Counted from the stretch's first letter, positions 4,547 through 32,901 are shown. The stretch is 64,000 bases of DNA from a virus (IMGVR_UViG_2861084961_000001), one strand, 5' to 3'. A program made the numbers and translations. The notes: generated from the letters alone by a model not told the origin.

Positions 4547-4627
4547 AAAATAAGCGTGGAGAACACCTCCACGCTTGATTCATTGGTGAAACAACTTTTC
4601 TTTTGCCAAACCACAAAAGAAAAACAC

Positions 4628-18043: not shown

Positions 18044-21000
18044 ATGAAGGCTCTGATGGTTCGAACTGACTTCTCTCTTGGGGAGTCGGCTCTAAAAGCA
18101 GAAAACGCGGTGAAGATTGCCAGAGAAGCTGGCTACACCGCTGTAATTTCGGCAGATAGCATGAATATTGCGAGTGTTATTCCACTACAACGTGCCGCTG
18201 GTGACGACATGGCGGTTATTTGTGGTGTGAAACTAAACATTGTTGATGATCCCACATACGAGCACCGGGCTAAACTTGCTAAAGAGTCTATGGGATGTAT
18301 GGAATCATTAGAGCGTGGGCGGAACTACTCCTTTACCGCTCTAATTAAAAATGAGCAGGGATATCGAGACATCTGCGAACTAATGACGGCGGCCAACACA
18401 CGAGAACAGTTCTACTTTGTACCGCGTCTCTCGCTCGAACAGTTGGTTTCTACATATGCCAAAGGCAACATCATCCTGCTAACTTCCGACATCGGTAGCG
18501 TGTTCCAACGCAACGATTTTGCAAAAATCATAAGCTCACTGATTACAGCGGGTGGAAAAGACAACTTCTATAGTGTGGTTTATCCGCACCCTACCCATTC
18601 TACGACCAGATTAACGTCCGGGCGATGAAAGTCGCCAGCGCACTGAAAATAGAGCCAGTAGCGTTCTATCCCGCTTATTACGAATCGATCGACGATGCAG
18701 ACATTAAAGACATTGCGCACATGGTTACGAACAACATCAAAATCGACCAGCCGCATCGTCTGCGTATCCCCACCAGCGAGATAACGCCGTCAATTGTCGC
18801 CGCCATCTCCTTGAGGCGCTGAAAGCCTTCTCCGTTCGCATGGATGTGCCGGTAACAGCTGCAATGGCCTCAACAACGCAGGATACCATTATCGATGCCT
18901 GCACATGGCGCTGGCATGAATTGCCACCAGCACTGCCAAAGATGGCAGACGACGAGCCTGCAACTCTGATGAAACTGGCCGTTGCTGGGCTGCGTAAACG
19001 TCTTACCACAAAAGAGTTTGGCTACACACCACCGGCTTCTGAGAACAGGGTTTATGTTGAGCGACTTAAGTACGAAATGGATACGCTGACTCGCCTGGGA
19101 TTCTGTGGTTACTTCCTGATGGTGCGCGATCTGATGAATCATAGTCGTGAAACTGGCATTCCCGTTGGGCCTGGTCGTGGTTCCTCTGCTGGCTCTTTGG
19201 TGGCATGGTGCATAGGCATAACCAACGTCGACCCAATCCGTCACGGTCTTCTGTTTGAACGTTTCATCAACCCTGAGCGTCTCGACTTGCCGGATGCGGA
19301 TTTGGACTTCAGCCAGGCACGTCGCCATGAAGTGATCGAGTATCTGAATGAACGCTACGGCGAAGATTACGTTGCGGGTATTCCGAACTTCACATATCTG
19401 GGCGCAGCCTCTGCACTACGTGACACCGCTCGTATTTATGGTGTGGAGTCCGCAGATATGGCGGTATCAAAGAACTGAAGAACGTCGAGGATGATAGCCT
19501 TCCATTGGAAGAACTGCGCGAACAACTGGCAAGTCTCGACAAATACGCAACAAAATATCCTGATGCATTCAATGCAGCCTGCAAGTTACAAAGCCTTATG
19601 CGTGGCTTTGGTAGACATGCGGCAGGGATGATCGTAGCAGGTGTTCCTCTGACAGAACGTACACCGGTTGAACGACGTGGTGACGCGCGTTGTATCGCAT
19701 TTGACAAGCGTTACTGCGAGGCTATGGGCCTAATTAAGCTGGACGTGCTTGGCCTGGCAACTCTCGATTTGCTCGATAGTGCAAAACGCTACATAAAAGA
19801 GAACACAGGTGAAGATATCAATCTTGATGCCATTTCTCTTGAAGATCGCAAGGTGCTGGATGGTTTTGCTGCTGGGTACACTCAAGGTGTTTTCCAGCTT
19901 GAATCAGGCCCAATGCGCAAGCTGCTTAAAGATTTAGGTGGTGGAATTGAGCCAATGAGCTTTAAAACGGTCGTCGCTACGACTGCGCTCTTCCGGCCGG
20001 GGCCAATTCAGTCAGGCATGTTGGATGACTATGTTTCTGTAGCCAAAGGCTTTATGAAGCCGGAATCATTACACCCCGTTCTTGATGAACTTACCGCAGA
20101 AACAAATGGCGTGATTCTCTATCAGGAACAGACGATGAACGCGACTCGATTGCTTGCTGGCTTCACAATGGCTGAAGCTGACGGTGTTCGTAAAGCGATC
20201 GGCAAAAAGGACATGGAAAAATGAAGAGCATGGGCGAGAAGTTCATCGTTCAGGCTCAAGCTGGCTGGATAGACGTTGAGCTGGAAGATGGCACTACACA
20301 GCGCATTCACCGTGCGGAACATTTTAAATGCGAAGACGGAACTCTGAAAACTGTCGAAGAGGCACTTGAGTACGGCGCAAAACTACCTATAAACGCAGTA
20401 CGCGTTACAGCGTCACATCCAGGGCTATCAGAGATGAAAGCGAAGGAGATCTGGACCGCATTCGAAAAAAATGGAGCCTACCAGTTCAACAAATCACACT
20501 CTGTTGCTTACTCCTTAATCAGTTATCAATCTATGTGGTTGAAAACTCATTATCCCGCAGAGTTTTCGCTGCTGCTCTCACTATTCTTGGCGAAGATAAA
20601 CACCAGGGGCTGGTTAAAGATGCGCTGACCTATGGTATTCGCGTATTGCCACCAGACGTTAACGTGTCATCTAACCGAATCGAGATCCGCACGCTTGAAG
20701 ATGGCAGCCAGGTGCTGTATGCGCCCTTCTCTGCTGTGAAGGGGTGTTCTGAGAATGGCTGCCAGGCCATCATGAGAGCGCGAGAAAGGGTTGGCGGCAA
20801 ATTCGAGTCACTGGCGCAATTCGAAGAAGCTGTCGAGAAACGTGCCTGTAATAGTCGAGTGCGCGAATCACTGCAAAAAGTAGGTGCGTTTGCGTCCATA
20901 GAGCCAGGTAGTCTGCCAGCAACTGATCCAGAGCGTCTCCGCGACCAAGCAGAATTGATGGGAAACCTTGTCATAGATGCAGTTAAAGCCTCACGTCCGT

Positions 21001-21556
21001 TTGAGATGAACCCCAAACGTTCGGCTGAGATTAACGTGCTCATGACACGGATGGCGGCTGAAATGGGCTTAGGTGATGAACTAATCCGCCCAGCATTGGT
21101 ATTAAGCCGAAAATCATGATCATTCTGGACAATGCGAACGGCAATGATGCTCGAACCGGTTACTTCATGGAGAACGGATACGACGATTTTAAGGCCAAGC
21201 TATTGACGGCTGGAGATTTACGCATGGGCGATCTCTATGTCACAGGCGTTTGCAAAAAGGTGAAAGACAAAGAAAAGGACTACACCAAAGACGAGATCGG
21301 CCAGTTCACCGACTTTATGCGTGAAGAGATCAATCTGGTGCGTCCGACCTATGTGCTGACGTGTGGCAGCCGGGCAACGGCATTGTTTAACAACAAAAAC
21401 AAGCCATCCGATTTGGTCGGCAGGAAGGAGTATCTTCCAGACCTTGACGTTACTGTCTTTTACGGGTTTAACCCCAACATTCTTTACTTCAGACCTGAAG
21501 AGGGAGAACGACTAGAAGCGATATTAGCCGACGTAGCAGAAACTATTAAGACGTGA
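18044..21556 (+). CDS. dnaE: DNA polymerase III alpha-like (DnaE-type) replicative polymerase, split into 7 frames by -1 shifts
   Basis: PHP-like N-terminus, [42 protein letters not shown] polymerase core motif; summed length ~1170 aa matches DnaE; consecutive ORFs 18044,18625,18840,19505,20221,20535,21116 each shift frame by -1. Confidence 0.7.
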
Positions 21557-21659
21557 TCCAATAAACATGGCCATAAAGGCCATGTTTTCCCTTATCCCCT
21601 CACATCCCCCTATCTTCAAGCTCATTGCCTCATCATTACAATGATATAATCAATACAAA

Positions 21660-22115
21660 ATGATAAGTGATAAGGAAATGCGCATGATCGCCGATATTTA
21701 CGAGAAAATAATGTCTGATCTCGAGTTTGACCGAGACAATCTGGAAGAAGTCTGGCGTAGACAACCCCGCCTGTTGATGGAATATGGCTCAAAACTCGCT
21801 CATGCAGAAAAAAGTGTCGCAGAGGCAAAACTTAACCTTGAAGCTGTTGAAGCAAAGCTATACGACACAGAGCGTAAGAACTTGAGTATGAACGGCATTA
21901 AGTTCAACGAGTCTGTACTGGACGCTAAGGTTAAAACAAACCCACAGTATCTGTCTAAACGGCAGAAGTTGGATGAAGCACGGCACATCGCAGACATATA
22001 CAAACATGCTGTCGCCGCCTTTTCGCATCGCCGAGACATGATCGTTCAGGCGTCGAAGATGGCCATTGTTGAATTGGAGCGATTAGGCTCCGAACGCTTT
22101 ATTACTCCCCGTTGA
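21660..22115 (+). CDS. Hypothetical coiled-coil protein (151 aa), possible recombination mediator
   Basis: ORF between polymerase and SSB; helical/charged composition. Confidence 0.4.
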   Translation: MISDKEMRMIADIYEKIMSDLEFDRDNLEEVWRRQPRLLMEYGSKLAHAEKSVAEAKLNLEAVEAKLYDTERKNLSMNGIKFNESVLDAKVKTNPQYLSKRQKLDEARHIADIYKHAVAAFSHRRDMIVQASKMAIVELERLGSERFITPR

Positions 22116-22232
22116 TTTTTGATAGATAATAAGTAAGTACTGATCTATCATTGAGCAGCTCGAAAGAGCCACGAATGAACGAAAGCCCAACGCGCATAGC
22201 GCCATCGGCCAAATCACAACAAGGAGAAACAC

Positions 22233-23261
22233 ATGTCTAAGACATTACTTGATTTGCTTAACAAAACTCGTGAAGACATTGCCGCCAAACGTGGTAACAA
22301 CGTTGATCTGACTCGCTTAAAAGATGGCGTCAACTATATCCGTATCTTCCCGAATAAGGACGACCCAAACGGTAAGTTCTTCCAGACTTTCGGTATGCAC
22401 TACGTTAAGTATCAGAACGAGGACGGTAAAGAAGCAACCAACGCTTATATTTGTGAGCAACATACTCACGGTCGCGCTTGTCAGCTATGCGAAATGGTGA
22501 TGGAAGGTCGCGCTCGTCACAAGGGTAACAAAGCAATGGAAGAACGCATCGGTCAAATGCGTGCCACTCCTCGCTACCTGGTCAACGGCATTCTTTCAGC
22601 TCGTGAGGATTTCGCCGATGCAGAGAAATGCCAGTTAATCGAACTGCCTTCCACTGTATTCGATGATATCTGCAAAGCAATCACCGAAGACATCGCTGAT
22701 GATATCGGTAATCCACTGAGCAAAGAGGAAGGCTACGCATTCCTGATTAAACGTACTGGCTCTGGTCGCGATACCAAATATGACGTCTCGCCTAAGCGTA
22801 AAGTCTACAAAGGCGATATCGAAGATAAATTCTGGAATACCCAGCATGATCTGATCGCATACGCAAATCAGGCTGATGAAACTCGTCTTCTCTCGACAGT
22901 TCGCACTATGGGCCGTCTGATTGGCATCGCAGCACCAACTGCCTCTGCATCTGCACCAGCAATTTCCTCTACCGCGAAAACATCGGCCGCGGCACTGCCT
23001 GGATTTGGCTCTGTCACTGGTCATACGGAGGGTGCGACTGCTGTAGCAACCGCTCACACCCCAGCATCTGAACCAACCAGTCTGGTTGATGAAGAAATCC
23101 TCCGAGCCGTTGAAACTGAATTTAAACCAGAGGCAAGTTCCGCTGCCGTTGCCGTATCAGTCAAAGAGTCTGAAGCAGTCGCAGCGACATCTGTAGCAGC
23201 CGCATCTGCGACGGAAGATGAAGGTCTGGATGATCTACTGAGAGAGCTTGACTCTCTGTAA
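22233..23261 (+). CDS. gp32-like single-stranded DNA-binding protein
   Basis: IRIFPNKDDPNGKFF and Cys/His cluster CEQHTHGRACQLC resemble T4 gp32 zinc-binding core; acidic Ala/Ser-rich C-terminal tail. Confidence 0.7.
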   Translation: MSKTLLDLLNKTREDIAAKRGNNVDLTRLKDGVNYIRIFPNKDDPNGKFFQTFGMHYVKYQNEDGKEATNAYICEQHTHGRACQLCEMVMEGRARHKGNKAMEERIGQMRATPRYLVNGILSAREDFADAEKCQLIELPSTVFDDICKAITEDIADDIGNPLSKEEGYAFLIKRTGSGRDTKYDVSPKRKVYKGDIEDKFWNTQHDLIAYANQADETRLLSTVRTMGRLIGIAAPTASASAPAISSTAKTSAAALPGFGSVTGHTEGATAVATAHTPASEPTSLVDEEILRAVETEFKPEASSAAVAVSVKESEAVAATSVAAASATEDEGLDDLLRELDSL

Positions 23262-23277
23262 TCCCATTACGTGACCA

Positions 23278-23306
23278 GTAAGGCGTCTACGGACGCCTTA
23301 CTTTTT
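23278..23306 (+). terminator. Terminator hairpin gtaaggcgtctacggacgccttac + T-run
   Basis: Stem ggcgtc/gacgcc, tacg loop, ttttt. Confidence 0.7.
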
Positions 23307-23321
23307 GGAAGGAATGTACCG

Positions 23322-24266
23322 GTGAATTATCTCTTCGTAGATGGCAATAGCCTGGGTTATTACCACCAACAATCTGACAAATTGCACAACGGCGAAATGG
23401 AAGTACAGGCTGCTTTCGGCTTTGTTAAGAACGTCCGTCGTTATGCCTCCATCCTCCATGCCCGACCTATGATTCTTTGGGATGGATTTAGTGACAAGCG
23501 TCGCGACTTTTACCCGGACTACAAAGCAAATCGCGACGACGATCCTGATATGAAAAAGATGAAGGAAGGCTTTGCTATCCAGAAGCCATACATCCTCAAA
23601 ATGATGACCGCGCTTGGAGTTACCCAACTCATTGCAAAAGATGCAGAAGCGGATGATCTGGCCGGGCTGCTGGTATCCCGCATGGCACCGCAGCCAACCG
23701 TTGAACACATCTATCTGTTAACAGGCGATAGCGACTGGCTTCAGTTAGTTCGTGAAAACGTAAGCTGGGTAAGCCTGCGTGAAGACGCCAAAAACAAGCA
23801 GGTTAATTTTGAGCAATTTGCGAAGCTGACAGGATTCGCCACGCCTCGCGCATTTTTGGAAGCAAAAGCATTACAAGGCGATAACTCGGACAACATTAGC
23901 GGTGTTGGTGGCATTGGTGCTGGCGGTGCGAAAGAGCTGCTGCATGAATGGGGAAGTGTCGCAACGATGGTACGCGGCATCAACGACGGCTCAATCGTGG
24001 TTAATAAAGGGCGTCATAAGACCGCCTTCAACAAACTAGCGAAGAATGCCTTCAACGAGAAAACAGGCTGTCGAATGCTCGAAGCGTTCAAGAGAAACAT
24101 CACGCTAATGAACCTGATTGAGACGAAGTTTCCGCCTACCGAAATCGAAACAATCAAAGGCAATCGTGACGTGAAAGCATTCGAGCAACTGTGCTACGAG
24201 CTGAATTTCCGTTCGTTCCTTGAAGACCTTGAAGTGTTTGTTCTTCCATTCGAAAGGTATTGCTAA
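23322..24266 (+). CDS. 5'-3' exonuclease / flap endonuclease (phage RNase H-type)
   Basis: VNYLFVDGNSLGYY N-terminal FEN motif, YLLTGDSDWLQLV; start placed at GTG 23322 after terminator and GGAAGG RBS (longer ORF from 23271 would overlap the terminator). Confidence 0.75.
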   Translation: MNYLFVDGNSLGYYHQQSDKLHNGEMEVQAAFGFVKNVRRYASILHARPMILWDGFSDKRRDFYPDYKANRDDDPDMKKMKEGFAIQKPYILKMMTALGVTQLIAKDAEADDLAGLLVSRMAPQPTVEHIYLLTGDSDWLQLVRENVSWVSLREDAKNKQVNFEQFAKLTGFATPRAFLEAKALQGDNSDNISGVGGIGAGGAKELLHEWGSVATMVRGINDGSIVVNKGRHKTAFNKLAKNAFNEKTGCRMLEAFKRNITLMNLIETKFPPTEIETIKGNRDVKAFEQLCYELNFRSFLEDLEVFVLPFERYC

Positions 24267-24532
24267 TGCTTAAATCGATTATTAATGGCGCTACAACCAC
24301 CCCTGCCCAACTGGCAAAAGAGATTGTCTTTTATCACGGTGAGTACGCTGTCATCGCACTGCCGTCAATTCTAGGCACTGCCGGAATGAAAGCGACAGAT
24401 CGCGAGTTTGGATTAGTCAGCGAGCAGGTCGTAAAAATCCTCGCTCGTGTATCCAGACTCCTTAACCACGATGCGATTGTATTCGACGAATCCGCCGCTT
24501 TAAAACGAATCAACGAAACAAAAGGAGCCTGA
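24260..24532 (+). CDS. Hypothetical protein (90 aa)
   Basis: ORF start-overlapping upstream stop. Confidence 0.35.
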   Translation: MLMLKSIINGATTTPAQLAKEIVFYHGEYAVIALPSILGTAGMKATDREFGLVSEQVVKILARVSRLLNHDAIVFDESAALKRINETKGA

Positions 24533-24534
24533 TC

Positions 24535-25608
24535 ATGGCAAAAGGAAAATCCGCACTGGCACTTGCTCTGAAAAAGAAAATCGGTAGCAACGACGAAATT
24601 CAGAAAGTAACTCATTGGATTGACACAGGCTTTCCTCCGTTAAACAAAGCTATTTCCGGTCGTTACGATGGCGGTTTCCCATGTGGTCGTATCGTCGAAG
24701 TATTCGGGCCGCCAAGCGCGGGGAAAACTTTTTTGGCAACGGCAGCAATGATCTCCGCTCAGAAACAAGATGGCCTGGCGGTATTCCTCGATCATGAGAA
24801 CAGTTTTGACGTTGGCCTGGCTGTCGCCAATGGTCTGAACGCAGATGAGGATGACGGCCAGTGGGTATACAAGCAGCCTGATACCTTCGAAGACTCTGTA
24901 GAGTTGATCGGCACAATACTTAAATTGGTACGTGATGAAGAGCTTATCCCTGAATCAGCACCTATCTGTATCGTGGCTGACTCACTTGCGTCTATGGTTC
25001 CGAACTCCAAAGCCGAGAAGTTCGAAAAGATGGCTGAAGGCACTGCCAAAGACAAAGATCAGCTAAACATGAACGACAATACGGCGCTGGCTCGTGCAAC
25101 GAGTGCGAACTTCCCCACTCTGGCTTTGTGGGCACGCAAATACAACGCCTGCATCATCTTCTTGAATCAGGTTCGCACAAAAATCGGTGTAATGTTTGGC
25201 GACCCTACTACGTCACCAGGCGGCGATTCACCGAAGTTTTACGCTTCTGTGCGCATCCGTCTCGGTGCATCGGTGATGAAGGATGGTAAAGAGAAGATCG
25301 GTCAGGACGTAGGCGCAGAGTGCATCAAAAACAAAGTTGCACCACCGTATGGCAAATGCACCTGGAAATTCTACTTCGATCCTACTCGTGGCCTCGACGT
25401 TATCGAGTCGCTCGTCGAGTACATGCTGGAAGAAGGATACCTGCCAAAGAACGCCAGCGGTCGAGTAGAAATTGGTGACAAGAAATACACCAAATCACAG
25501 ATCGTCGAGATGTATCGGGAGAAGCCACTAGCTGAAATCATTGCAGCTTTACAGGCAATCGACGACCGGAGAGCAAAAGATACCCCCACCGAGTCAGTAG
25601 AAGGGTAA
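24535..25608 (+). CDS. RecA/UvsX-like recombinase
   Basis: GRIVEVFGPPSAGKTFLA Walker A in RecA core context; 357 aa. Confidence 0.85.
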   Translation: MAKGKSALALALKKKIGSNDEIQKVTHWIDTGFPPLNKAISGRYDGGFPCGRIVEVFGPPSAGKTFLATAAMISAQKQDGLAVFLDHENSFDVGLAVANGLNADEDDGQWVYKQPDTFEDSVELIGTILKLVRDEELIPESAPICIVADSLASMVPNSKAEKFEKMAEGTAKDKDQLNMNDNTALARATSANFPTLALWARKYNACIIFLNQVRTKIGVMFGDPTTSPGGDSPKFYASVRIRLGASVMKDGKEKIGQDVGAECIKNKVAPPYGKCTWKFYFDPTRGLDVIESLVEYMLEEGYLPKNASGRVEIGDKKYTKSQIVEMYREKPLAEIIAALQAIDDRRAKDTPTESVEG

Positions 25609-25613
25609 ACACA

Positions 25614-25636
25614 AGGCGTCCATAGGACGCCTTTTT
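25614..25636 (+). terminator. Terminator hairpin ggcgtccataggacgcc + T6
   Basis: Stem ggcgtcc/ggacgcc followed by tttttt. Confidence 0.75.
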
Positions 25637-25700
25637 TATCTCTTGAAAATATATAAGTACTTACTTATTATTTTCGCATAACAACCACATAGGAAAACAC

Positions 25701-25901
25701 ATGATCAAAATCTATCTATTGGCAGTAGCCACAGGCCTTTCTGTGGCTCTCATCTACGGATTACTGGTTCCGTCGCTGATTTCTGCAAAGAGTGATTTGG
25801 CCGTCATGCTTGGAGTTCTCGTTGGTTTTGGCACTCCTGTAATCGGTCTTATTGCTGGTCGTAAGTTTATTAACTCATTAATCAAAGCAAAGGGGAAATA
25901 A
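25701..25901 (+). CDS. Small two-helix membrane protein (66 aa), possible NfeD-like partner of SPFH protein
   Basis: Two hydrophobic segments; immediately upstream of SPFH gene; conserved GGAAAACACATG start context. Confidence 0.4.
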   Translation: MIKIYLLAVATGLSVALIYGLLVPSLISAKSDLAVMLGVLVGFGTPVIGLIAGRKFINSLIKAKGK

Positions 25902-25904
25902 GTA

Positions 25905-26734
25905 ATGAAGAAAGGTTTACTTGCAGTTGCTCTGGCGGCTATTTGCACAATGGGTCTTACTGGCTGTGATCGCGTGGAGCCTGGATACGTTGGCATCAAA
26001 GTAAACAAATTAGGTGAAGACAAAGGGATTGGTGAAGTGGTTGGCGTTGGTCGCCAATGGACAGGTCTTAACACCGAACTTTACGTATTCCCGACCTTCA
26101 AACAAATGAAGACCTACGACGAGCCGTTCACATTCCAGATGAGTGACGGTACTGCTATTGGTCATAAAATTGGCGTTGCGTATCTGGTTAATCGTGACAA
26201 GGTAACGACGGTGTTCCAGACCTATCGCAAAGGCGTAGACGATATCACCGAATCAGATCTGCGTCAGAAAATTGCCGACTCTCTAAACCGTTTGGCCAGC
26301 CGTATGACCACTGACTCATTTATCGACGGTGGTAAGGCGCAATTGCTGGACAACGCACTGAAAGATATTCAGAAAGAGATGTCTCCGGTTGGTATTGAGG
26401 TACTGAGCCTATCATGGGTTGGAAGCCTGATTACCCAAAAACCGTCATTGAATCTATCAACGCCAAAGTAACGGCTAACCAGCGTACTCTGCAACGTCAG
26501 CAGGAAGTCGAACAACGTAAAGCTGAGGCGAATATGCTGCGTGAACAGGCTAATGGTGAAGCTGATGCTATTCGTGCTCGTGCGCAAGCAGAAGCAGACG
26601 CTATTCGTCTGCGCGGTGAAGCTCTGCGTCAAAACCCGAACGTTATGGAACTGGAAGCCATCAATAAATGGAATGGCCAGTTACCGCAGTACATGACTCA
26701 AGGGGCTAACACTCCTTTCATTACAGTGAAATAA
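25905..26734 (+). CDS. SPFH/band-7 family lipoprotein; frame broken near 26400-26470
   Basis: Lipoprotein signal MKKGLLAVALAAICTMGLTGC; C-terminal coiled-coil with EAxA repeats; -1 frame relation between the two ORFs. Confidence 0.55.
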
Positions 26735-26753
26735 CTCTCTTTAAGAAGATCAG

Positions 26754-26778
26754 GCGTCCAGTTGGACGCCGTTTTATT
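26754..26778 (+). terminator. Terminator hairpin ggcgtccagttggacgcc + T-rich tail
   Basis: Same GGCGTCC stem family as terminators at 23278 and 25614. Confidence 0.65.
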
Positions 26779-26829
26779 CTCGTTATTATCACACACAAGA
26801 AAACAATTTGTTAAAAGGTTAAGTTAATT

Positions 26830-27654
26830 ATGCCCAACCACATTACAAACGAAATCCGAGTCATAGGTGGTACAAATAAACAACGCTTAGATTTCATACG
26901 TGCCATAACTAACAAAAAAGGTCTAATTGACTTTAATACCATTTGCAGACGTCCGAAAAGTATAGAAATGGAAGAAAACAATCATATCAGGCGCATGGCC
27001 TCTGCAATGGCGGGCGAAACAGTTTACGACTACATGTTCGGTGAATTAAAGACTCCAGAACAGGTCGAATTAGCTATGCGTGAATCTGGAATGACACGCA
27101 AGGAAATTCGCAAAATCAAAGAGCAGGCTCTTATGCGGCTTGAGAATTATCGTCGCTATGGCTATTACTCATGGTTTGACTGGTCGCGAGCTAATTGGGG
27201 AACAAAATGGAATGCCTACAACATCGAAATGCCCGTAAAACGTATCCCTACACGTATTAAGTACGGCCATAATTTCCGCCATACACACGTTCGAGCATAT
27301 GCAAAACGAATCTATAAAAAACGTCTTGCAAGACATGCCGCAACTGGTGGTGAGTTGGTGATTCGCTTTGAAACAGCCTGGTCTATGCCAAAACCAATTT
27401 ATCAAGCGATGGCTAGAAAGTTCCCGCACCTTGAATTTGTAATACGTTATGCAGACGAAGACTTCGGCAATAACTGCGGATTCATTTTACTTCGCAACGG
27501 CAAATGGGAATATGACTACATTGCACCGGCGAATAACGAACAATCGTCAGAAGAAAAAATCAAATGGCGCAAGTTCGCCTTTGAGTTATGTTGTCCTGGT
27601 ATTACTCCACAAGAATACGGTCTAAATGAAGAATACGAATACGCCGGATATTAA
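26830..27654 (+). CDS. Hypothetical protein (274 aa)
   Basis: ORF preceded by AGAAAACAATTTGTT motif; Trp-rich segment YSWFDWSRANWGTKWNAY. Confidence 0.45.
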   Translation: MPNHITNEIRVIGGTNKQRLDFIRAITNKKGLIDFNTICRRPKSIEMEENNHIRRMASAMAGETVYDYMFGELKTPEQVELAMRESGMTRKEIRKIKEQALMRLENYRRYGYYSWFDWSRANWGTKWNAYNIEMPVKRIPTRIKYGHNFRHTHVRAYAKRIYKKRLARHAATGGELVIRFETAWSMPKPIYQAMARKFPHLEFVIRYADEDFGNNCGFILLRNGKWEYDYIAPANNEQSSEEKIKWRKFAFELCCPGITPQEYGLNEEYEYAGY

Positions 27655-27779
27655 AAAATTGTCATTTAGCTTTACGCATGAAGCATAGAGGTTAATAAGA
27701 TGAAAAGAAAATTGAAGAACCAAAAACAACCCTTAATAAACATGGGGAAAAAATTCAAACACATCCAGCGTTCGGTCTT

Positions 27780-28439
27780 GTGAAAACAAGCCGTGTTAGC
27801 ACAACTGGCATTCGCCTATTTGATTCAGAACTGGAACATAGAGACTATATTGAAATAGGCGTTTACGAGGCAGAGCTGTCCTTAGACAATGAACGAACCC
27901 GGCCACAAAGAAGTAGCAATAGACGGCCTTTAGTTGAAATTAGACTTAGCCAGGCACAATGGGCTGCTATGGTTAGCAGTTTTGGTGTGGGCGAAGGTGT
28001 GCCATGCACTATTTCATATAAAACCATTGGCGACTCAATTAGAGTTCATGATATTGCCGAGCAAAAAAGTATTCGGCAAAAATTCAACGATCAAATAAAG
28101 GCAGCTACGAATAGTGAGATTGATCGACTTAATCAGCAAGTTTCAGAGCTAGGTGAGCTTGTGAAAAAAGGAAGAGCTGGAAAACGTGACCTTGAAGAAC
28201 TATATAGAAAACTTGCATCTGCTGTAGCTAACCTTCCTGAAAATCTGTGCTTTGCTACCGAATTAATGCAGGAGCAAATGGATGAAATTGTCTCATCTGG
28301 AAAGGCGGAGATTGAGGCGTATGTTGCAGGCACTGTTATGCGTAAAGGATTAGCAGCATTAGGTACAGAATCATGCATTAACGATGATCCTACAGTCTCT
28401 ATCACCAAAATGGAAAGCGGTAAAGAATTACTGCCATAA
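27780..28439 (+). CDS. Hypothetical coiled-coil protein (219 aa as given; may start upstream at ATG 27700 via a frame break)
   Basis: ORF; upstream in-frame continuation and ATG 27700 in -1 related frame near an A-run. Confidence 0.4.
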   Translation: MKTSRVSTTGIRLFDSELEHRDYIEIGVYEAELSLDNERTRPQRSSNRRPLVEIRLSQAQWAAMVSSFGVGEGVPCTISYKTIGDSIRVHDIAEQKSIRQKFNDQIKAATNSEIDRLNQQVSELGELVKKGRAGKRDLEELYRKLASAVANLPENLCFATELMQEQMDEIVSSGKAEIEAYVAGTVMRKGLAALGTESCINDDPTVSITKMESGKELLP

Positions 28440-28506
28440 ATGTATCTGAGGTACTGACAATGCTTTTAATTCAACCTGGGTTCGGTTTAAAGATAAAAAA
28501 GGACAT

Positions 28507-28848
28507 ATGTTTGGTGAGAGAGATTCCAAACGAAAAATTCTGTCTATTCGATTGCCATTTATCACCATTCATTGGTTAAACAGAGAGTCAACCGATTATT
28601 GGTATAAATGTGCAAGAGCAGCATTTAACGACCCTGACTGGTTTATAGAAAACCACCACGCGGTTCGTCAGGCAAAAAGAAAGGCAAATACGACATATAT
28701 GAAGGCATATCAGGATGCCTGGGAAGAACATCGTGGTCGATACCAAAAAAACATTGAAAAACTTGAATCTGAAAATATGGACCTAAGAAGAAAACTCGGT
28801 GAAGCACGGCGAGATATTGAAGCATATAAACGTCTTGTATCGGAGTGA
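28507..28848 (+). CDS. Hypothetical protein (113 aa)
   Basis: ORF in AT-rich block. Confidence 0.35.
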   Translation: MFGERDSKRKILSIRLPFITIHWLNRESTDYWYKCARAAFNDPDWFIENHHAVRQAKRKANTTYMKAYQDAWEEHRGRYQKNIEKLESENMDLRRKLGEARRDIEAYKRLVSE

Positions 28849-29010
28849 ATATGACTTTACATTGTTTTTCAAAGGGCATTGCTTTTCACTATACAGAAAC
28901 AGAAATAATAATGGGGCATTCTACATATGTAGTAAATGTGGCAGAACAAAATATCTTCCAGATGTCAAATTTGAAGGTCCTTAAATGTTTGCATTAAATG
29001 GGCAATACAG

Positions 29011-29427
29011 ATGATCGCAACAGACTTTTCTAAATTAAGTGATTTTGAAATTAACAGACGAGTATGTGAGGCTTTAGATATGGAGGAGTATTTCTTCATA
29101 CCTGATGACGAAGCAGATTTCGATTCGGAGATCCCCACTGATGAAAGAGGTCCTGTTTGGCAAACGTCAAAAAGGGATATTAATGGCTTCCGTGCTTCAA
29201 ACGGAAATTGCTTCAATCCTTGCAACAATCCGGCAGACGCAAAGCCTATTATCGTAGAGAATAGAATTGGCATCATTCCAGCGCCAGAAAATGGATTATG
29301 GAAGGCTGCGCATAGAAAGGTTGGTAACGATAATACTCCATACCATATGACTCAAAATGTAAATCCACTCCGCGCCGCTATGATTGTCTTTCTGATGATG
29401 AAAGAAAGTGAGAGTTGTACCGATTAA
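29011..29427 (+). CDS. Hypothetical protein (138 aa)
   Basis: ORF. Confidence 0.35.
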   Translation: MIATDFSKLSDFEINRRVCEALDMEEYFFIPDDEADFDSEIPTDERGPVWQTSKRDINGFRASNGNCFNPCNNPADAKPIIVENRIGIIPAPENGLWKAAHRKVGNDNTPYHMTQNVNPLRAAMIVFLMMKESESCTD

Positions 29428-29725
29428 TGAATATATACGATTTTTTAAAAAACCTAACACATGTGTCAGAAAAGGGTATAGACCGTCAGTCATCGATTGC
29501 TGGTCGCTATCAGCAAATAATCTCAACAATGTATTCAAAATGCATTGGGAGTTTCTTTGTGAAGCGCGCGGCGTTCTCGACATGACAGTCAGAGAAGCAA
29601 TTATCTGGATTCTTTGGTTTCCGGTAAGAACATTTATGACTCTGACGTACCCATTTACCTTCTGGATTTGGGGAACCGTCCTTTATTTCATATTAAAAGG
29701 AGAAGTAAAACATGGCAGCAATTAA
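29408..29725 (+). CDS. Hypothetical membrane protein (105 aa)
   Basis: Hydrophobic C-terminal half WILWFPVRTFMTLTYPFTFWIWGTVLYFIL. Confidence 0.35.
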   Translation: MRVVPINEYIRFFKKPNTCVRKGYRPSVIDCWSLSANNLNNVFKMHWEFLCEARGVLDMTVREAIIWILWFPVRTFMTLTYPFTFWIWGTVLYFILKGEVKHGSN

Positions 29726-30137
29726 GAAACTCTACGATGCCGCAAACGCGGCTCTGAATGTTATTGATGATGAAGTATCAAAAGGCTTTCCTGAACCTGA
29801 TTGGGCGCATCAGCTACGAAACGCTATCGCCGAAATGAAGCCACCAGCTCCGACCACCGACGAGACAGACTGGCAGCGATTTATCCGTATGTACGCTCAG
29901 GAAATAGGTCCAACGCCAACGGCAGAGCAAGCAATGCTGCTGAAATACTTCAAAGAGGCGGGAGAGGATTTACCAATTGATGACTCAGCATATTGGTTCC
30001 ACTGCGCATGGCGTAAATATGACGTGATATTCACACAAGGCATGGGGAGCAAAGATATGGTTGTGTGGCATCTACTCCATATAGACACAGCCGTTGACAG
30101 AGTTATTGAACAGTTTTTCCCTAAACAAGAAGATTGA
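29712..30137 (+). CDS. Hypothetical protein (141 aa)
   Basis: ORF overlapping neighbours in operon fashion. Confidence 0.4.
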   Translation: MAAIKKLYDAANAALNVIDDEVSKGFPEPDWAHQLRNAIAEMKPPAPTTDETDWQRFIRMYAQEIGPTPTAEQAMLLKYFKEAGEDLPIDDSAYWFHCAWRKYDVIFTQGMGSKDMVVWHLLHIDTAVDRVIEQFFPKQED

Positions 30138-30192
30138 TCGCCTATTCATAACTAACAAAATAAGTAAACACTAACCACAAAAGGAAAAACAC

Positions 30193-30468
30193 ATGAGAGT
30201 TTTAGTTCGAATCGTTACCAGCACTGTCTATGACGTGTTTCCGCTTTTTATGGTCAAAGCCGATGGCCTTAACGACGAAGAAACTGACGCACTGATCCAG
30301 CGTATTCTCGTTGAATATACAGGTCATGACGCTGATTCAGTGATGGTTGATGATGATGGTGTTTGTTGGCATAACGGCAACTGTTGGTACGTAGAAGAGA
30401 CTCAACAAATCAGTGATGAAGATGCCGCACATCTTGAGCGTATTCTAAGCATCAGCACTTTTGAGTGA
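30193..30468 (+). CDS. Hypothetical acidic protein (91 aa)
   Basis: Conserved AAAGGAAAAACACATG start context. Confidence 0.45.
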   Translation: MRVLVRIVTSTVYDVFPLFMVKADGLNDEETDALIQRILVEYTGHDADSVMVDDDGVCWHNGNCWYVEETQQISDEDAAHLERILSISTFE

Positions 30469-30682
30469 GTTTACAGTAAAATTTATATAAGTTAGTATCT
30501 ACCTATCATGAAGATTTTATTGAATACTTGTTGCTCATCGTGTCAATAGCTTTTGTCATCGACTGCATTTTCACTGGTGTCATTCGTAAAGTCTTTTCCC
30601 CGGTGAACGACGTAGTCATAAACGCTTTGGCTATCGTGCTCGTATTTAATTCAGCATTTGATGTAATCAAAGAGGTGGCAGC

Positions 30683-31018
30683 ATGAAGGCCATCCCATTC
30701 GCGCTGTTGTTCCTTTCTTCGATCGTTGTGGCCGACACCACTGTTTATCAGTGTGAAATGTCTGTAGCCGACGTTAAGAATGGCGCTCTTACCGACGTCA
30801 TAAAAGCACCATATGGAGCGATGGTCGTAGACAGCGGCGACCAGTTCTATGTTGTGCGTGACGATCGAGTATTGTCATCCCCATATCTCACAAACCGTAA
30901 TGGCAAATTAACCGGCGTCGGAGAAGACCACTTCGTATACAACAAATACAAGGGCTTCTATGGCGTTCACGCTTCTCAGCAAAGCTACCTTTTCGATGAC
31001 TGCAAGGAGGTTGGATAA
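30683..31018 (+). CDS. Secreted/periplasmic hypothetical protein (111 aa)
   Basis: N-terminal signal peptide MKAIPFALLFLSSIVVADTT. Confidence 0.45.
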   Translation: MKAIPFALLFLSSIVVADTTVYQCEMSVADVKNGALTDVIKAPYGAMVVDSGDQFYVVRDDRVLSSPYLTNRNGKLTGVGEDHFVYNKYKGFYGVHASQQSYLFDDCKEVG

Positions 31019-31230
31019 TGGCATTAACACTAGCAGGTCTGGAAATCGAGAAAACAAGCGGATACTGGCGTGCTAAGGGTTTCAAGCAGCCTGGCGTTCT
31101 TGAGCGTCTGGAGCGTGAAGATGGGTATATCGTCCACCAGCGGCGTGAATGGCGCATGTACGATCCAGAAACAGGAAAACTGACTACAAAAGCCGGAACA
31201 CTTTGGGGTCTGTTAAAGAAAATACACTAA
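31018..31230 (+). CDS. Hypothetical protein (70 aa)
   Basis: ORF start-overlapping upstream stop; followed by hairpin actgcggctcgttccgcagt. Confidence 0.35.
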   Translation: MALTLAGLEIEKTSGYWRAKGFKQPGVLERLEREDGYIVHQRREWRMYDPETGKLTTKAGTLWGLLKKIH

Positions 31231-31278
31231 ATGCAAACTGACTGCGGCTCGTTCCGCAGTCATATTTCATAGTCGTCA

Positions 31279-31809
31279 CCGCTGACAGCATACACAATCA
31301 ACTGCCGCTGATAGCATATCGAGAGTCTATCTCACCGCTCACAGCATACTTTACTCGATTTTTACCGCTGACAGCATACTTAAGGCATTGCATGAATAAT
31401 GTGTACCGGTATGGGTATAACCAGAACAAAATTACCGCTGGCAGCATACGAAGGTCTGACATATGCCATTAATTACCGCTGATAGCATATCCAAACAAAA
31501 TTCCTCAATAAAACACCGCTGACAGCATACGTTCTATCAGGGAGCAGCAGGCAATAAATGCCTTTCACTACAAGTAATCAGCGCAATGGCAATAGAATGT
31601 TAGTGAGCGCAAACCTATATGGAATGCACTCTTCGAGGTTAGTAACCACTGGGGAGGTATAAAAGAGCATTGAGTGGTGATAGATGATTTACCGCTCACG
31701 GCATACGTTCATCTCACTATACCGCTGGTAGCATATCTTTAACCGTTCACAGCATACTTTTCAGAAAAATAGCCGCTGATAGCATACATTTCACCGCTGA
31801 CAGCATATC
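31279..31809. repeat. Iteron array: 12 copies of ~15-19 bp repeat CCGCTGACAGCATAC (variants) in two groups (7 + 5), downstream of repA
   Basis: Counted by eye at approx 31279, 31305, 31335, 31366, 31435, 31474, 31516, 31691, 31722, 31742, 31773, 31793. Confidence 0.85.
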
Positions 31810-32901
31810 AAAGCAGTTTGAGACTATTGGAAAGGATCTCAATCATCTTGATATTTTCAGGCGTCAAATTCTGTGAAAGTTCGGTTATCTTATTGATAAT
31901 GTTCTGTTTGGCATCAATTTCCCCGGCTTTCTCATCTGGTTTTTTGGGTTCGATGTCTTCAGGTTTTGGCGGTGCGACTTTGAGTTTTGGATTGCGGCTG
32001 TGAATCTGGATATAGATCGACCGCCCTCGCTTAATCTCGCTGTATTCGAGATAACCCAAATCTTGGAGAGCTTTTAAGCCGTTACGTATAGTCTGATTCT
32101 GCGAGCTGACATTCCTGCTACTCAAATTGAGTCGCGCACGCAATCGAGCAAGCGATACCGGCGCAGGCTTGGTTGGAAGACTTTCGATGAAGGTGTACAG
32201 AGCCTGTGCTGTTTCTTTGCGTGGTAGCTTATTGATAACCTTTAACTGTAAAAGAACCTTATGGTCAAAGCGATATAGTTCGGCCAGCTTCGGTTCTGCA
32301 TAGAACACCACCGTATCTTTCTGCTCGTTGTAGTCCACGCTATTGATGAGGTGCACCATCAGAAGCGAGATCTTGTTAGAGCCGTCGACATTCTTTTCTT
32401 CATACGTTCTCTGGAAAGACAGAGTGGTACGCATAATCTTCAAAAGACTGTTTGTAAGCCGGTCGCGGAGTGTTTTGCGGATCTGTGACGATGGATAGCC
32501 ACAAAACTTCGCAAATTTCGTGATGCTTAACTCGACACGACCGTTAGGTTCGCCGTATTCTGCCAGCGAACGCACAACGCCCACCCACGTTTTGAAATCA
32601 TGATCCATGTCGAGACGAGGACCGGTTATCTTGATATCGGAATAGCCTTCAGAACGGGCTACTTCGAGCTGAACAAGCTCCTTTGAAGCATCGATCTCAT
32701 TTGGCTTGTTACGCTTGCTGTATTTTGTCCCTTGAGCGTTGGCACGAACAACCCCAGCCGCATCAACGCAATTGGTTGGACTGTATTGTTGCTATTAGGG
32801 ACAAGTTCCCCTGTGTACAATTCAAGGGAACCTTCTTCAAAGTTGTCGAGATTATCTTCTACTTCTTTGTTATTTTTACCTTTTTTATTTTTTGTGGACA
32901 T
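31808..32901 (-). CDS. repA: Replication initiator RepA (iteron-binding), probable frame break near 32650-32760
   Basis: Minus-strand ORF 31808..32608 flanked on both sides by iterons; N-terminal Lys-rich segment MSTKNKKGKNNK starting at 32901 is in -1-related frame; larger ORF start at 33021 lies inside iterons and is rejected. Confidence 0.7.

What the first reader, a model, noticed from the sequence alone, without database searches (positions are those of the whole stretch)
25701..26734. SPFH/band-7 lipoprotein paired with a small membrane protein
A lipoprotein-signal SPFH-family protein with a C-terminal alanine-rich coiled-coil is preceded by a 66 aa two-helix membrane protein. This resembles bacterial NfeD-SPFH pairs that organise membrane microdomains. 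A phage-plasmid copy could modulate host membrane proteases or act in exclusion.
Basis: partly seen in the sequence, partly recalled or inferred. Interest (0 to 1): 0.45.

Follow-up and report, generated by a model that had tools for sequence, protein, structure and literature searches.

The report
Phage SPFH lipoprotein with membrane partner
This is a real two-gene accessory cassette of an SSU5-like phage-plasmid, encoding an inner-membrane SPFH ("band 7") lipoprotein and its own small two-helix membrane partner (not an NfeD protein); the pair is common in phages, already annotated in databases, and has no known function.

Summary
Window 25701-25901 encodes a 66-aa two-helix membrane protein. 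Window 25905-26734 encodes a 276-aa SPFH/Band_7 lipoprotein (Pfam 2.6e-30 once repaired). Here the SPFH gene is split by a one-base deletion (AAA to AA near 26422). That is one of 14 indels, mostly in homopolymer runs, across 13 kb against a 99.2%-identical plasmid, so it is most likely a sequencing error.

The partner is not NfeD: 0 of 15 family members match it, and there is no room for the OB fold. It belongs to phrog_1130; the lipoprotein belongs to phrog_200. The two genes are linked:
- 79 of 80 close viral loci carry the partner directly upstream.
- About 30 of 50 distant loci do too.
- About 13% of family representatives have the partner fused to the SPFH N-terminus.

The cassette has its own conserved promoter-like element and terminator. 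Duplicated hairpins bracket it, and it is missing from an otherwise syntenic Klebsiella plasmid, so it behaves as a moron. The model (pLDDT 89) matches HflK/C, prohibitin, erlin and stomatin over its full length. Cys21 followed by Asp predicts inner-membrane retention with the domain in the periplasm.

The family occurs in 378 phage records, both virulent and temperate. Its function is untested; a client-sequestering periplasmic cage is my inference. Moderate interest.

The parts
25613..25633 (+). Terminator hairpin after the recA-like gene; left copy of the GGCGTCC...GGACGCC hairpin that brackets the cassette
   Evidence: Terminator scan. The hairpin motif occurs only twice in the 64 kb window, with 0 expected. 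The syntenic Klebsiella plasmid has a single copy.
25643..25671 (+). Sigma-70-like promoter TTGAAA-17 nt-TATTAT, with the 10-bp palindrome TAAGTACTTA (25654-25663) in its spacer
   Evidence: 10 of 12 matches. The whole block is identical in Y. pestis pMT-1, although the adjacent small gene is only 63% identical in DNA. The palindrome recurs 9 times in the window against 1.24 expected.
25701..25901 (+). Gene for the 66-aa two-TM inner-membrane partner protein (phrog_1130); predicted N-in/C-in, with the conserved periplasmic turn motif P-x-L-I-S-A-x-S
   Evidence: Pro24 and Ser28 are invariant across 15 diverse members. Homologous modules are fused to SPFH in about 13% of family representatives.
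25905..26734 (+). Gene for the 276-aa SPFH/Band_7 lipoprotein (phrog_200): lipobox LTGC with Asp at +2, SPFH domain 21-176, long helix 179-243, conserved C-terminal KWNGxLP tail. It reads as two ORFs in the window because of a 1-nt deletion.
26420..26422 (.). Site of the single-base deletion (AAA to AA) that splits the SPFH reading frame; probably a homopolymer sequencing error
   Evidence: alignment with L001 and L002; 14 single-base indels in 13.2 kb, 12 of them deletions in the window, almost all in homopolymer runs; dnaE is also fragmented.
26753..26770 (+). Terminator hairpin after the SPFH gene; right copy of the bracketing hairpin, followed by sequence that in Klebsiella directly follows the single recA hairpin

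Best explanation
This is a self-contained accessory cassette (moron) of an SSU5-like phage-plasmid: promoter, 66-aa two-TM protein, SPFH lipoprotein, terminator.

Proposed mechanism:
1. The SPFH protein is exported and lipidated on Cys21. Asp at +2 keeps it in the inner membrane, so its SPFH domain sits on the periplasmic leaflet, the same side as HflK/C.
2. Its long coiled-coil helix and conserved C-terminal KWxGxLP tail drive assembly into an HflK/C- or prohibitin-like dome over a patch of inner membrane.
3. The two-TM partner is the integral-membrane subunit of that assembly. It is predicted N-in/C-in, with a conserved periplasmic turn, and is often fused to the SPFH N-terminus in relatives.
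4. The resulting phage-made microdomain or cage sequesters or shields an inner-membrane client early in infection, or in the carrier state.

My leading candidate client is the FtsH protease system. The closest sequence relatives, prohibitin and HflK/C, both cage FtsH-family proteases on the non-cytoplasmic face. I put that specific client at only about 0.25.

Shown here: gene structure, family membership, linkage and fusion of the two genes, the lipobox with Asp+2, cassette insertion, and the fold.

Inferred: lipidation, inner-membrane localisation, oligomeric cage, partner inside the cage, and the client or function.

The stated confidence of 0.55 applies to the architecture and mechanism, not to the client.
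For: - SPFH membership: Band_7 over the full profile, 106 bits.
- Fold: AF2 model pLDDT 89.2 with SPFH domain, a 65-residue helix and a tail. Full-length Foldseek matches to HflC 7vhq_G (1.4e-14), PHB2 8rrh_B, HflK, erlin1/2, stomatin, flotillin and QmcA. Profile against PDB sequences: PHB1 1.4e-11, HflK 4.4e-7, HflC 5e-6, QmcA 5.6e-6.
- Lipoprotein signal: Cys21 is invariant in close relatives. The +2 residue is Asp in 97 of 103 lipobox-bearing close relatives.
- Partner linkage: 79 of 80 viral loci carry the small gene directly upstream, and the one exception is disrupted by an insertion. About 30 of 50 distant loci carry it and 1 is fused. It is kept in N4-like S6 and rV5-like 4MG.
- Fusions: about 18 of 142 representatives carry the two-TM module fused N-terminally, with the same turn motif. 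P0021 scores 2e-17 against the small-protein HMM.
- Topology: the fusions have basic TM2-TM3 linkers, which puts SPFH outside the cytoplasm.
- Moron status: own promoter and terminator, duplicated hairpins, an empty site in the Klebsiella plasmid pUCLAOXA232-4.X and an occupied site in pMT-1, and a conserved promoter block.
- Purifying selection: 119 synonymous against 17 nonsynonymous codon differences.
Against: - There is no experimental evidence for any step.
- Oligomerisation and the partner's position could not be modelled, because only monomer prediction was available and it returns no coordinates.
- About 40% of distant family members have no detectable partner next to them, and about 30% use a plain N-terminal TM instead of a lipobox. 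The partner is therefore not strictly required for the fold to work.
- The FtsH idea rests only on analogy. The protein scores far below the HflK and HflC equivalog cut-offs.
- Many carriers are strictly virulent phages, for which control of lysogeny through FtsH is irrelevant (PMC8540360).
- In this window the gene is frameshifted, and I cannot prove that this is an artefact.
Confidence: 0.55

Rival explanations
1. Canonical NfeD-SPFH operon: the upstream gene is a short NfeD that works with the SPFH protein, as YbbJ does with QmcA.
For: The gene order (partner upstream, translationally coupled) resembles NfeD-SPFH operons. QmcA-YbbJ (8z5g) is among the fold matches.
Against: - No NfeD (PF01957) match at E<=1 in the window protein or in 15 diverse homologues.
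- 66 aa holds two TM helices and no OB-fold domain.
- Nothing found in PDB sequences.
- The protein belongs to phrog_1130.
- QmcA faces the cytoplasm, whereas this lipoprotein is exported.
Confidence: 0.04
2. Superinfection exclusion or envelope barrier: the periplasm-facing assembly blocks DNA entry or inner-membrane penetration by incoming phages, in the way early T4 Imm (membrane) and Sp (periplasmic) do.
For: - It lies in early or accessory regions of both temperate and virulent phages.
- It carries its own promoter on the phage-plasmid.
- It is a periplasmic plus membrane pair.
- All the named host genera are Gram-negative.
Against: - No match to known defence or exclusion models in PADLOC.
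- The SPFH protein is very conserved across phages with unrelated injection machineries, which is unlike typical fast-evolving, narrow exclusion proteins.
- No experimental report.
Confidence: 0.2
3. General membrane stabiliser: a phage-made SPFH scaffold that keeps the inner membrane intact and energised during infection (against holin leakage or envelope stress). This would be analogous to the PspA-associated SPFH protein SamI/YdjI, or to the stress-tolerance roles of HflKC.
For: - The wide spread over virulent and temperate phages of many families suggests a generic physiological role.
- Host SPFH complexes affect respiration and stress tolerance (PMC12005517, PMC10434171).
- In B. subtilis, small membrane proteins recruit an SPFH protein in a stress operon (bioRxiv 10.64898/2026.02.06.704340).
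Against: This is purely analogical. SamI is cytosolic, whereas this protein is periplasmic. No association with lysis genes was seen.
Confidence: 0.15
4. Lysogenic-conversion or virulence lipoprotein that acts on the animal host, like the prophage-encoded HflK/C-like protein PM0222 of Pasteurella multocida. PM0222 is released in outer-membrane vesicles and triggers TLR1/2.
For: - PMC9872710 describes a prophage-island SPFH protein of 25-35 kDa found in OMVs, whose deletion attenuates virulence.
- The cassette is present on Y. pestis pMT-1 and on plasmids of pathogenic E. coli and Shigella.
Against: - I could not verify that PM0222 belongs to this family.
- Asp+2 predicts inner-membrane rather than outer-membrane or OMV localisation.
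- The family is common in virulent phages of plant and environmental bacteria, where action on an animal host makes no sense.
Confidence: 0.06
5. Genuine pseudogene: in this particular element the SPFH gene is inactivated by the frameshift, and only a truncated 188-aa product lacking the coiled coil is made.
For: The frameshift is in the sequence as given. A truncated product would lack the helix and tail needed for assembly.
Against: - It is a single-base loss in a homopolymer.
- It is one of 14 such indels in 13.2 kb against a 99.2%-identical plasmid, and 12 are deletions in the window.
- Three of them break the essential dnaE gene, which is the signature of sequencing error.
- All but two of the 237 plasmid relatives cover the query, the 25 best-listed records span the full-length 1202 nt, and the RefSeq copies are annotated as intact SPFH genes; all 80 viral loci match residues 1-276 or 3-276.
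- There is no slippery heptamer in the right frame for programmed frameshifting.
Confidence: 0.12

Closest known systems
HflK/HflC-FtsH complex of E. coli (PDB 7vhp, 7vhq, 7wi3, 9cz2)
   Same: - SPFH fold with a long coiled-coil wall and a C-terminal cap segment; it is the top Foldseek match.
- The SPFH domains lie on the periplasmic face of the inner membrane.
- It has a dedicated membrane-embedded client or partner.
   Different: - Scores far below the HflK and HflC equivalog cut-offs: 19 and 30 bits against 159 and 134.
- A single SPFH species rather than a heterodimer.
- Lipid anchor instead of an N-terminal TM helix.
- The partner is a 66-aa hairpin, not FtsH.
- Encoded by a phage.
Prohibitin PHB1/PHB2 cage (PDB 8rrh, 9o9z, 9unl)
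   Same: It is the best sequence-profile match among solved structures (1.4e-11), with a full-length fold match. The cage sits on the non-matrix side of an energy-transducing membrane, around an FtsH-type protease.
   Different: Eukaryotic or archaeal, TM-anchored and hetero-oligomeric. Identity is only about 14-17%.
QmcA-YbbJ and other SPFH-NfeD operons (PDB 8z5g)
   Same: A two-gene operon in which a membrane partner gene precedes the SPFH gene. The SPFH fold matches.
   Different: The partner lacks the NfeD OB-fold domain and any NfeD sequence signal. QmcA faces the cytoplasm; this protein is an exported lipoprotein.
B. subtilis SamG-SamH-SamI (YdjGHI) module
   Same: Small non-NfeD membrane proteins recruit an SPFH protein to the membrane (bioRxiv 10.64898/2026.02.06.704340).
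   Different: SamI is cytosolic and works with PspA. No sequence relationship was tested. It is a chromosomal stress operon, not a phage cassette.
PHROG families phrog_200 ('lipoprotein') and phrog_1130 ('membrane protein'); RefSeq WP_000715581.1 and WP_048959223.1
   Same: Direct membership: 3e-108 and 7.6e-26. The closest plasmid differs at 2 positions in the 1.2 kb spanning the cassette and is already annotated as an SPFH domain-containing protein plus a membrane protein.
   Different: Neither family has an assigned function. Some records carry a legacy 'serine protease' label (phiP27, P88, Stx phages), which has no domain support.
P. multocida prophage protein PM0222 (HflK/C-like)
   Same: A prophage-encoded SPFH protein of similar size, expressed in the lysogen (PMC9872710).
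   Different: Reported in OMVs and acting on TLR1/2. Its sequence relationship to this family was not verified here.

Membership tests
SPFH / Band 7 superfamily (Pfam PF01145) | Band_7 domain match above the gathering threshold | tested here: met
   Repaired protein: 106.2 bits against cut-off 23.6, residues 23-209 on profile positions 2-176 of 176. The N-terminal window fragment alone scores 74.6 bits.
Cage-forming SPFH proteins (HflK/C, prohibitin, stomatin, flotillin, erlin) | SPFH domain followed by a long coiled-coil helix and a C-terminal cap segment | tested here: met
   AF2 model pLDDT 89.2 with helix 179-243, helix 245-255 and a tail. Full-length Foldseek alignments to the cage formers.
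Cage-forming SPFH proteins (HflK/C, prohibitin, stomatin, flotillin, erlin) | Assembly into a multimeric ring or dome on a membrane | not testable with these tools
   Only monomer prediction is available. This needs AF-multimer, cryo-EM or SEC.
HflK / HflC (NCBIfam TIGR01933 / TIGR01932 equivalogs) | Score above the equivalog cut-off | tested here: not met
   18.7 bits against 159.4 (HflK) and 30.2 bits against 134.4 (HflC).
Flotillin (Pfam PF15975 Flot) | Flotillin C-terminal repeat region above threshold | tested here: not met
   19.9 bits against cut-off 27.
NfeD family (partner of SPFH proteins) | NfeD C-terminal OB-fold domain (PF01957) after the membrane segment | tested here: not met
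   No PF01957 hit at E<=1 for the window protein or for 15 diverse homologues. At 66 aa there is no soluble domain. No PDB sequence match.
Bacterial lipoproteins | Signal peptide ending in a lipobox [LVI][ASTVI][GAS]C | tested here: met
   MKKGLLAVALAAICTMGLTGC. Cys21 is invariant in alignment A2. A lipobox is present in about 60-65% of distant representatives. Actual lipidation was not tested.
Inner-membrane-retained lipoproteins of Enterobacterales (+2 rule) | Asp at position +2 after the lipidated Cys | tested here: met
   C21-D22 in the window. Asp in 97 and Glu in 5 of 103 lipobox-bearing close relatives. Localisation itself was not tested.
Phage morons (autonomous accessory cassettes) | Own promoter and terminator, inserted between two backbone genes, absent from related genomes | tested here: met
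   - Promoter-like site and flanking terminators.
- Duplicated hairpins only at the cassette ends.
- Empty site in the Klebsiella plasmid pUCLAOXA232-4.X and occupied site in pMT-1.
- Promoter block conserved.
Transcription itself was not tested.
Known anti-phage defence systems (PADLOC-DB 2.0) | Match to a defence-system protein model | tested here: not met
   No hit for the SPFH protein or the window partner at E<=0.1.
Spanin pair (i-spanin plus o-spanin lipoprotein) | Small outer-membrane lipoprotein plus a type-II inner-membrane protein with a periplasmic coiled coil, located in the lysis cassette | tested here: not met
   The lipoprotein is a 276-aa SPFH protein with the inner-membrane retention signal. 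The membrane protein is a two-TM hairpin with a turn of about 5 residues. The neighbours are recombination and replication genes.

The most novel reading that the evidence does not exclude
The SPFH lipoprotein and its two-TM partner form a phage-specific two-component membrane system, separate or fused. The pair was found in phages of Proteobacteria; for the Bacteroidota phages only the SPFH gene was seen. Phages would use it as a general host-takeover device on the periplasmic face of the inner membrane. One example would be replacing or hijacking HflKC to control FtsH and membrane proteostasis; another would be walling off the membrane against incoming phages. That would give a function to one of the 200 largest phage protein families and would be the first virus-built SPFH cage.
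Probability: 0.2. Interest if true: 0.7.

Novelty: new variant of a known kind. Interest (0 to 1): 0.4.

Why it matters
SPFH proteins are universal membrane organisers, and their clients are only now being defined by cryo-EM. Several phage genome papers call the phage copies puzzling (PMC13239085, PMC7760394, PMC8540360). Three results here turn that into a testable system:
- The phage SPFH lipoprotein has a dedicated non-NfeD partner, which is often fused to it.
- It carries an inner-membrane retention signal.
- It travels as an autonomous cassette among unrelated temperate and virulent phages, and it is also on Y. pestis pMT-1.

The system is two small genes, with clear localisation predictions and simple deletion or expression phenotypes to score. 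The genes themselves are already in databases, so the gain is in interpretation, not in discovering new sequence.

Tried and rejected
1. Programmed -1 frameshifting at the ORF overlap. Rejected: relatives have an intact frame, there is no X XXY YYZ heptamer in the zero frame, and the change is a homopolymer deletion like 13 others nearby.
2. P1 plp/upl as the same pair (a lead from memory). Rejected: P1 Plp is a 125-aa protein on the opposite strand. P1-like variants simply carry the SPFH pair in that variable slot upstream of ban.
3. NfeD identity of the partner. Rejected.
4. Known defence system. No PADLOC match.
5. The 'serine protease' annotation in phiP27, P88 and Stx phages. No protease domain; only Band_7.
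6. The search for related loci with broad alignments A1 and A3 failed because no stretch was conserved enough. Single distant proteins P0133 and P0140 gave only 3 and 1 loci.
7. The search for an exact empty site with a cassette-deleted query found no record joining both flanks. The Klebsiella plasmid instead retains only the proximal about 60 nt of the right flank.
8. Literature searches for any functional study of phage SPFH proteins found only genome-note speculation.
9. I did not run a second structure job on a natural fusion, because the tool returns no coordinates or PAE from which contacts could be read.

Full report
**1. What is in the sequence**

On the + strand, 25701-25901 encodes a 66-aa protein with two hydrophobic helices and a basic C-terminal tail. 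After the stop codon TAA and three more bases (GTA), a second gene starts at 25905 in the same reading frame. A GGGG-rich ribosome-binding site lies inside the end of the first gene.

In the window this second gene reads as two ORFs, 25905-26471 and 26414-26734. I aligned it with the closest plasmid, E. albertii pEA26_1 (99.8% identical over 1.2 kb), and with phage Cyrano. The split comes from loss of one A in GGAAAGCC at about 26420-26422. The 25 best-matching plasmid records, apart from one Shigella record that spans 1201 nt, all span the full-length 1202 nt.

The repaired product has 276 aa. It matches Pfam Band_7 over the complete profile at 106 bits, E 2.6e-30. The N-terminal fragment alone already scores 74.6 bits.

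**2. Is the frameshift real?**

Across the 13.2 kb I could compare, the window is 99.2% identical to pEA26_1 and differs by 14 single-base indels. Twelve are deletions in the window, and nearly all lie in homopolymer runs (A5, T4-T6, C3). Three of them cut the DNA polymerase III alpha gene into four ORFs (19505-21556), and others trim neighbouring genes.

This is the pattern of homopolymer under-calling, not of selection-free decay. I therefore treat the SPFH frameshift as a probable sequencing artefact, and put the probability of a true pseudogene at about 0.12. No suitable slippery site exists for programmed frameshifting.

**3. The element**

The window is 97% identical to Escherichia phages Cyrano, PhiR41_1 and CMS-2020a, and 79% identical to Salmonella phage SSU5. 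Its closest plasmid relatives are non-mobilizable plasmids of about 108-115 kb from E. coli, Shigella and E. albertii. DNA matching the 2.5-kb query around the cassette occurs in 330 of 5,426 complete E. coli genomes, on plasmids (243 places) and on chromosomes (101 places).

**4. A mobile cassette**

- A terminator hairpin follows the upstream recA-like gene (25613-25633). Next comes a sigma-70-like promoter, TTGAAA-17-TATTAT (25643-25671), then the two genes, then a second terminator (26753-26770).
- The two hairpins share the stem GGCGTCC/GGACGCC. This motif occurs nowhere else in the 64 kb, with 0 expected.
- In the syntenic Klebsiella plasmid pUCLAOXA232-4.X, a single such hairpin follows the recA-like gene. 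After it comes the sequence that, in the window, follows the second hairpin, and no SPFH gene is present. Y. pestis pMT-1 has the occupied arrangement, Y_RS21715 plus Y_RS21720.
- The cassette of about 1.14 kb is thus an insertion with a duplicated terminator, which is the classical moron layout.
- The promoter block is identical in pMT-1, although the adjacent small gene is only 63% identical in DNA. That argues the promoter is functional.
- Related copies (77-79% protein identity) sit in quite different backbones: the early operon of the P2-like phage P88, the early-left operon of phiP27 and Stx2 phages, and the variable slot upstream of ban in P1-like phages.

**5. The partner protein**

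It is not NfeD.
- Neither the window protein nor any of 15 diverse homologues matches PF01957 at E<=1.
- Nothing similar exists among PDB sequences.
- 66 aa leaves no room for the NfeD OB fold.
- It belongs to phrog_1130, and the lipoprotein belongs to phrog_200.

The two genes are tightly linked.
- 79 of 80 IMG/VR loci with a close SPFH homologue carry the small gene directly upstream. In the one exception the small gene is truncated by inserted DNA.
- In 50 much more distant viral loci (39-59% identical to representative P0126, itself about 45% identical to the window protein), an HMM of the partner finds it upstream in about 30, and fused in one.
- The pair is kept in the virulent N4-like phage S6 and in the rV5-like phage 4MG, but not in FelixO1-like phiEa21-4.

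Among about 142 full-length representatives of the SPFH family, about 18 carry an N-terminal extension with two extra TM helices. That extension aligns with the free partner, including the turn motif G-x3-P-x-[LM]-[IV]-S-[AS]-x-[SD]. Recurrent fusion is strong evidence that the two proteins act as one unit.

The fusions also fix the topology. The partner's basic tail, and the basic linker in the fusions, mark the cytoplasmic side. The short conserved turn and the SPFH domain are then periplasmic. This step is an inference from the positive-inside rule.

The partner evolves much faster than the SPFH protein. Against pMT-1 it is 61% identical in protein, compared with 94% for SPFH. Codon differences are 24 synonymous to 26 nonsynonymous for the partner, against 119 to 17 for SPFH.

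**6. The SPFH protein**

- The N-terminus is a lipoprotein signal (LTGC). Cys21 is invariant among close relatives.
- Asp follows the Cys in 97 of 103 lipobox-bearing close relatives. In Enterobacterales this is the established inner-membrane retention signal.
- In the wider family, roughly 60% have a lipobox and 30% a plain N-terminal TM segment. The rest are the three-TM fusions.
- The AlphaFold2 model (pLDDT 89.2) shows the SPFH alpha/beta domain (21-176), a 65-residue helix (179-243), a short helix and a C-terminal tail.
- The tail contains the most conserved motif in the family, KW-x-G-x-LP. W256 is invariant, and G258 and P261 are at least 90% conserved.
- Foldseek aligns the whole chain with HflC, HflK, prohibitin 1/2, erlin 1/2, stomatin, flotillin, QmcA and the major vault protein. 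The sequence profile's best solved relatives are prohibitin 1 (1.4e-11) and HflK/HflC.
- It is not an HflK or HflC orthologue, not a flotillin, and not a known defence protein.

**7. Distribution**

- The exhaustive representative search finds 2,816 clusters at E<=1e-3 and 192 at E<=1e-30.
- tblastn finds the protein in 378 phage genomes.
- Besides temperate phages, these include strictly virulent groups: N4-like, rV5-like, FelixO1-like, LUZ24-like, phiCbK-like, crAss-like and Lak megaphages. T4-like phages also encode SPFH ORFs (PMC1524935).
- All the named host genera are Gram-negative.
- In the virulent phages I inspected, the gene lies among early or replication-related genes.

**8. How it most likely works**

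The steps shown here are gene structure, family membership, linkage and fusion, the export and retention signals, cassette mobility and the fold.

From these I infer that the lipoprotein is anchored in the periplasmic leaflet of the inner membrane. It would oligomerise through its coiled coil and C-terminal tail into an HflK/C-like dome. The two-TM partner would be the integral-membrane subunit of that assembly. Together they would create a phage-made microdomain that sequesters or shields an inner-membrane component.

The two closest relatives by sequence, prohibitin and HflK/C, both enclose FtsH-type proteases on the non-cytoplasmic face (PMC12048511). FtsH is therefore my leading candidate client, at about 0.25. 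Superinfection exclusion (about 0.2) and general membrane stabilisation (about 0.15) are live alternatives.

Control of lysogeny through FtsH, as suggested in phage genome notes (PMC10269572, PMC8540360), cannot be the general role, because many carriers are virulent.

**9. What is known**

I found no functional study of a phage-encoded SPFH protein. Papers call its role unclear.

The only experimental work on a prophage-borne SPFH protein concerns P. multocida PM0222, reported in outer-membrane vesicles and as a TLR1/2 agonist (PMC9872710). I could not verify that it belongs to this family.

A conceptual parallel for a non-NfeD membrane partner is the B. subtilis SamGHI module.

**10. Verdict**

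The SPFH call is right, and the NfeD analogy fails as a membership claim.

The sequences are already annotated in RefSeq and PHROGs, so this is not a new gene. The architecture is a variant of the SPFH-operon theme that I could not find described: a lipid-anchored, periplasm-facing SPFH protein with its own two-TM subunit, often fused to it, moving as a moron. It is widespread enough to deserve a simple experimental test. Interest is moderate (0.4).

Noticed in passing
window 19505-21556 and scattered sites 20216-32728: The window carries 14 single-base indels in 13.2 kb against a 99.2%-identical plasmid. Twelve are deletions in the window and almost all lie in homopolymer runs. The DNA polymerase III alpha (dnaE) gene is cut into four ORFs, and several small genes are trimmed. 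The assembly probably has homopolymer errors throughout, so ORF calls in this window need frame correction.
   Followed up: partly
window 163, 9347, 13898, 22134, 25654, 38668, 43379/43383, 54475: The 10-bp palindrome TAAGTACTTA (<=1 mismatch) occurs 9 times against 1.24 expected. The contexts I read look intergenic, and in most sites it lies a few nt upstream of a -10-like hexamer. The only perfect copy is in the cassette promoter. It may be an operator or promoter element of a phage-plasmid regulator.
   Followed up: partly
window 24535-25608 (recA-like gene) and relatives: In the window the recA-like recombinase gene is uninterrupted (357 aa). In many related plasmids and in phage Cyrano it carries an intein or a LAGLIDADG homing endonuclease; the Cyrano RecA CDS is 2,340 nt.
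   Followed up: no
L090 (Y. pestis KIM10+ pMT-1) 4003-5037: The plague plasmid pMT-1 carries the same cassette at the same position after its recombinase gene. The SPFH protein is 94% identical, the partner 61% identical, and the promoter block is identical.
   Followed up: partly
L092 (P1-like phage vB_EcoM-Ro157c2YLVW) 2784-3828; L094 (P1) 873-2330: P1-like phages such as RCS47 carry the SPFH pair between the tRNA genes and ban. Canonical P1 has plp-upl-tciABC in that slot, so it is a variable accessory slot of the ban operon.
   Followed up: partly
protein P0018 (303 aa); window 25905-26620 joined to about 29900-30137: One public contig encodes a chimera: the first roughly 236 residues of this SPFH protein joined to the C-terminal part of the product of window ORF 29712-30137. 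This implies a deletion variant of about 3.3 kb that removes the SPFH tail and the genes in between.
   Followed up: no
L083 (IMG/VR UViG_2529293038_000017) about 3740-4000: This is the only close locus without an intact partner gene. Unrelated DNA has replaced the partner's 5' part and only its C-terminal codons remain. The inserted DNA was not identified; a mobile element is a guess.
   Followed up: no
protein P0131 (344 aa), residues 293-318: One SPFH representative has the partner-like motif at its C-terminus rather than its N-terminus. This may be a fusion in the opposite order.
   Followed up: no
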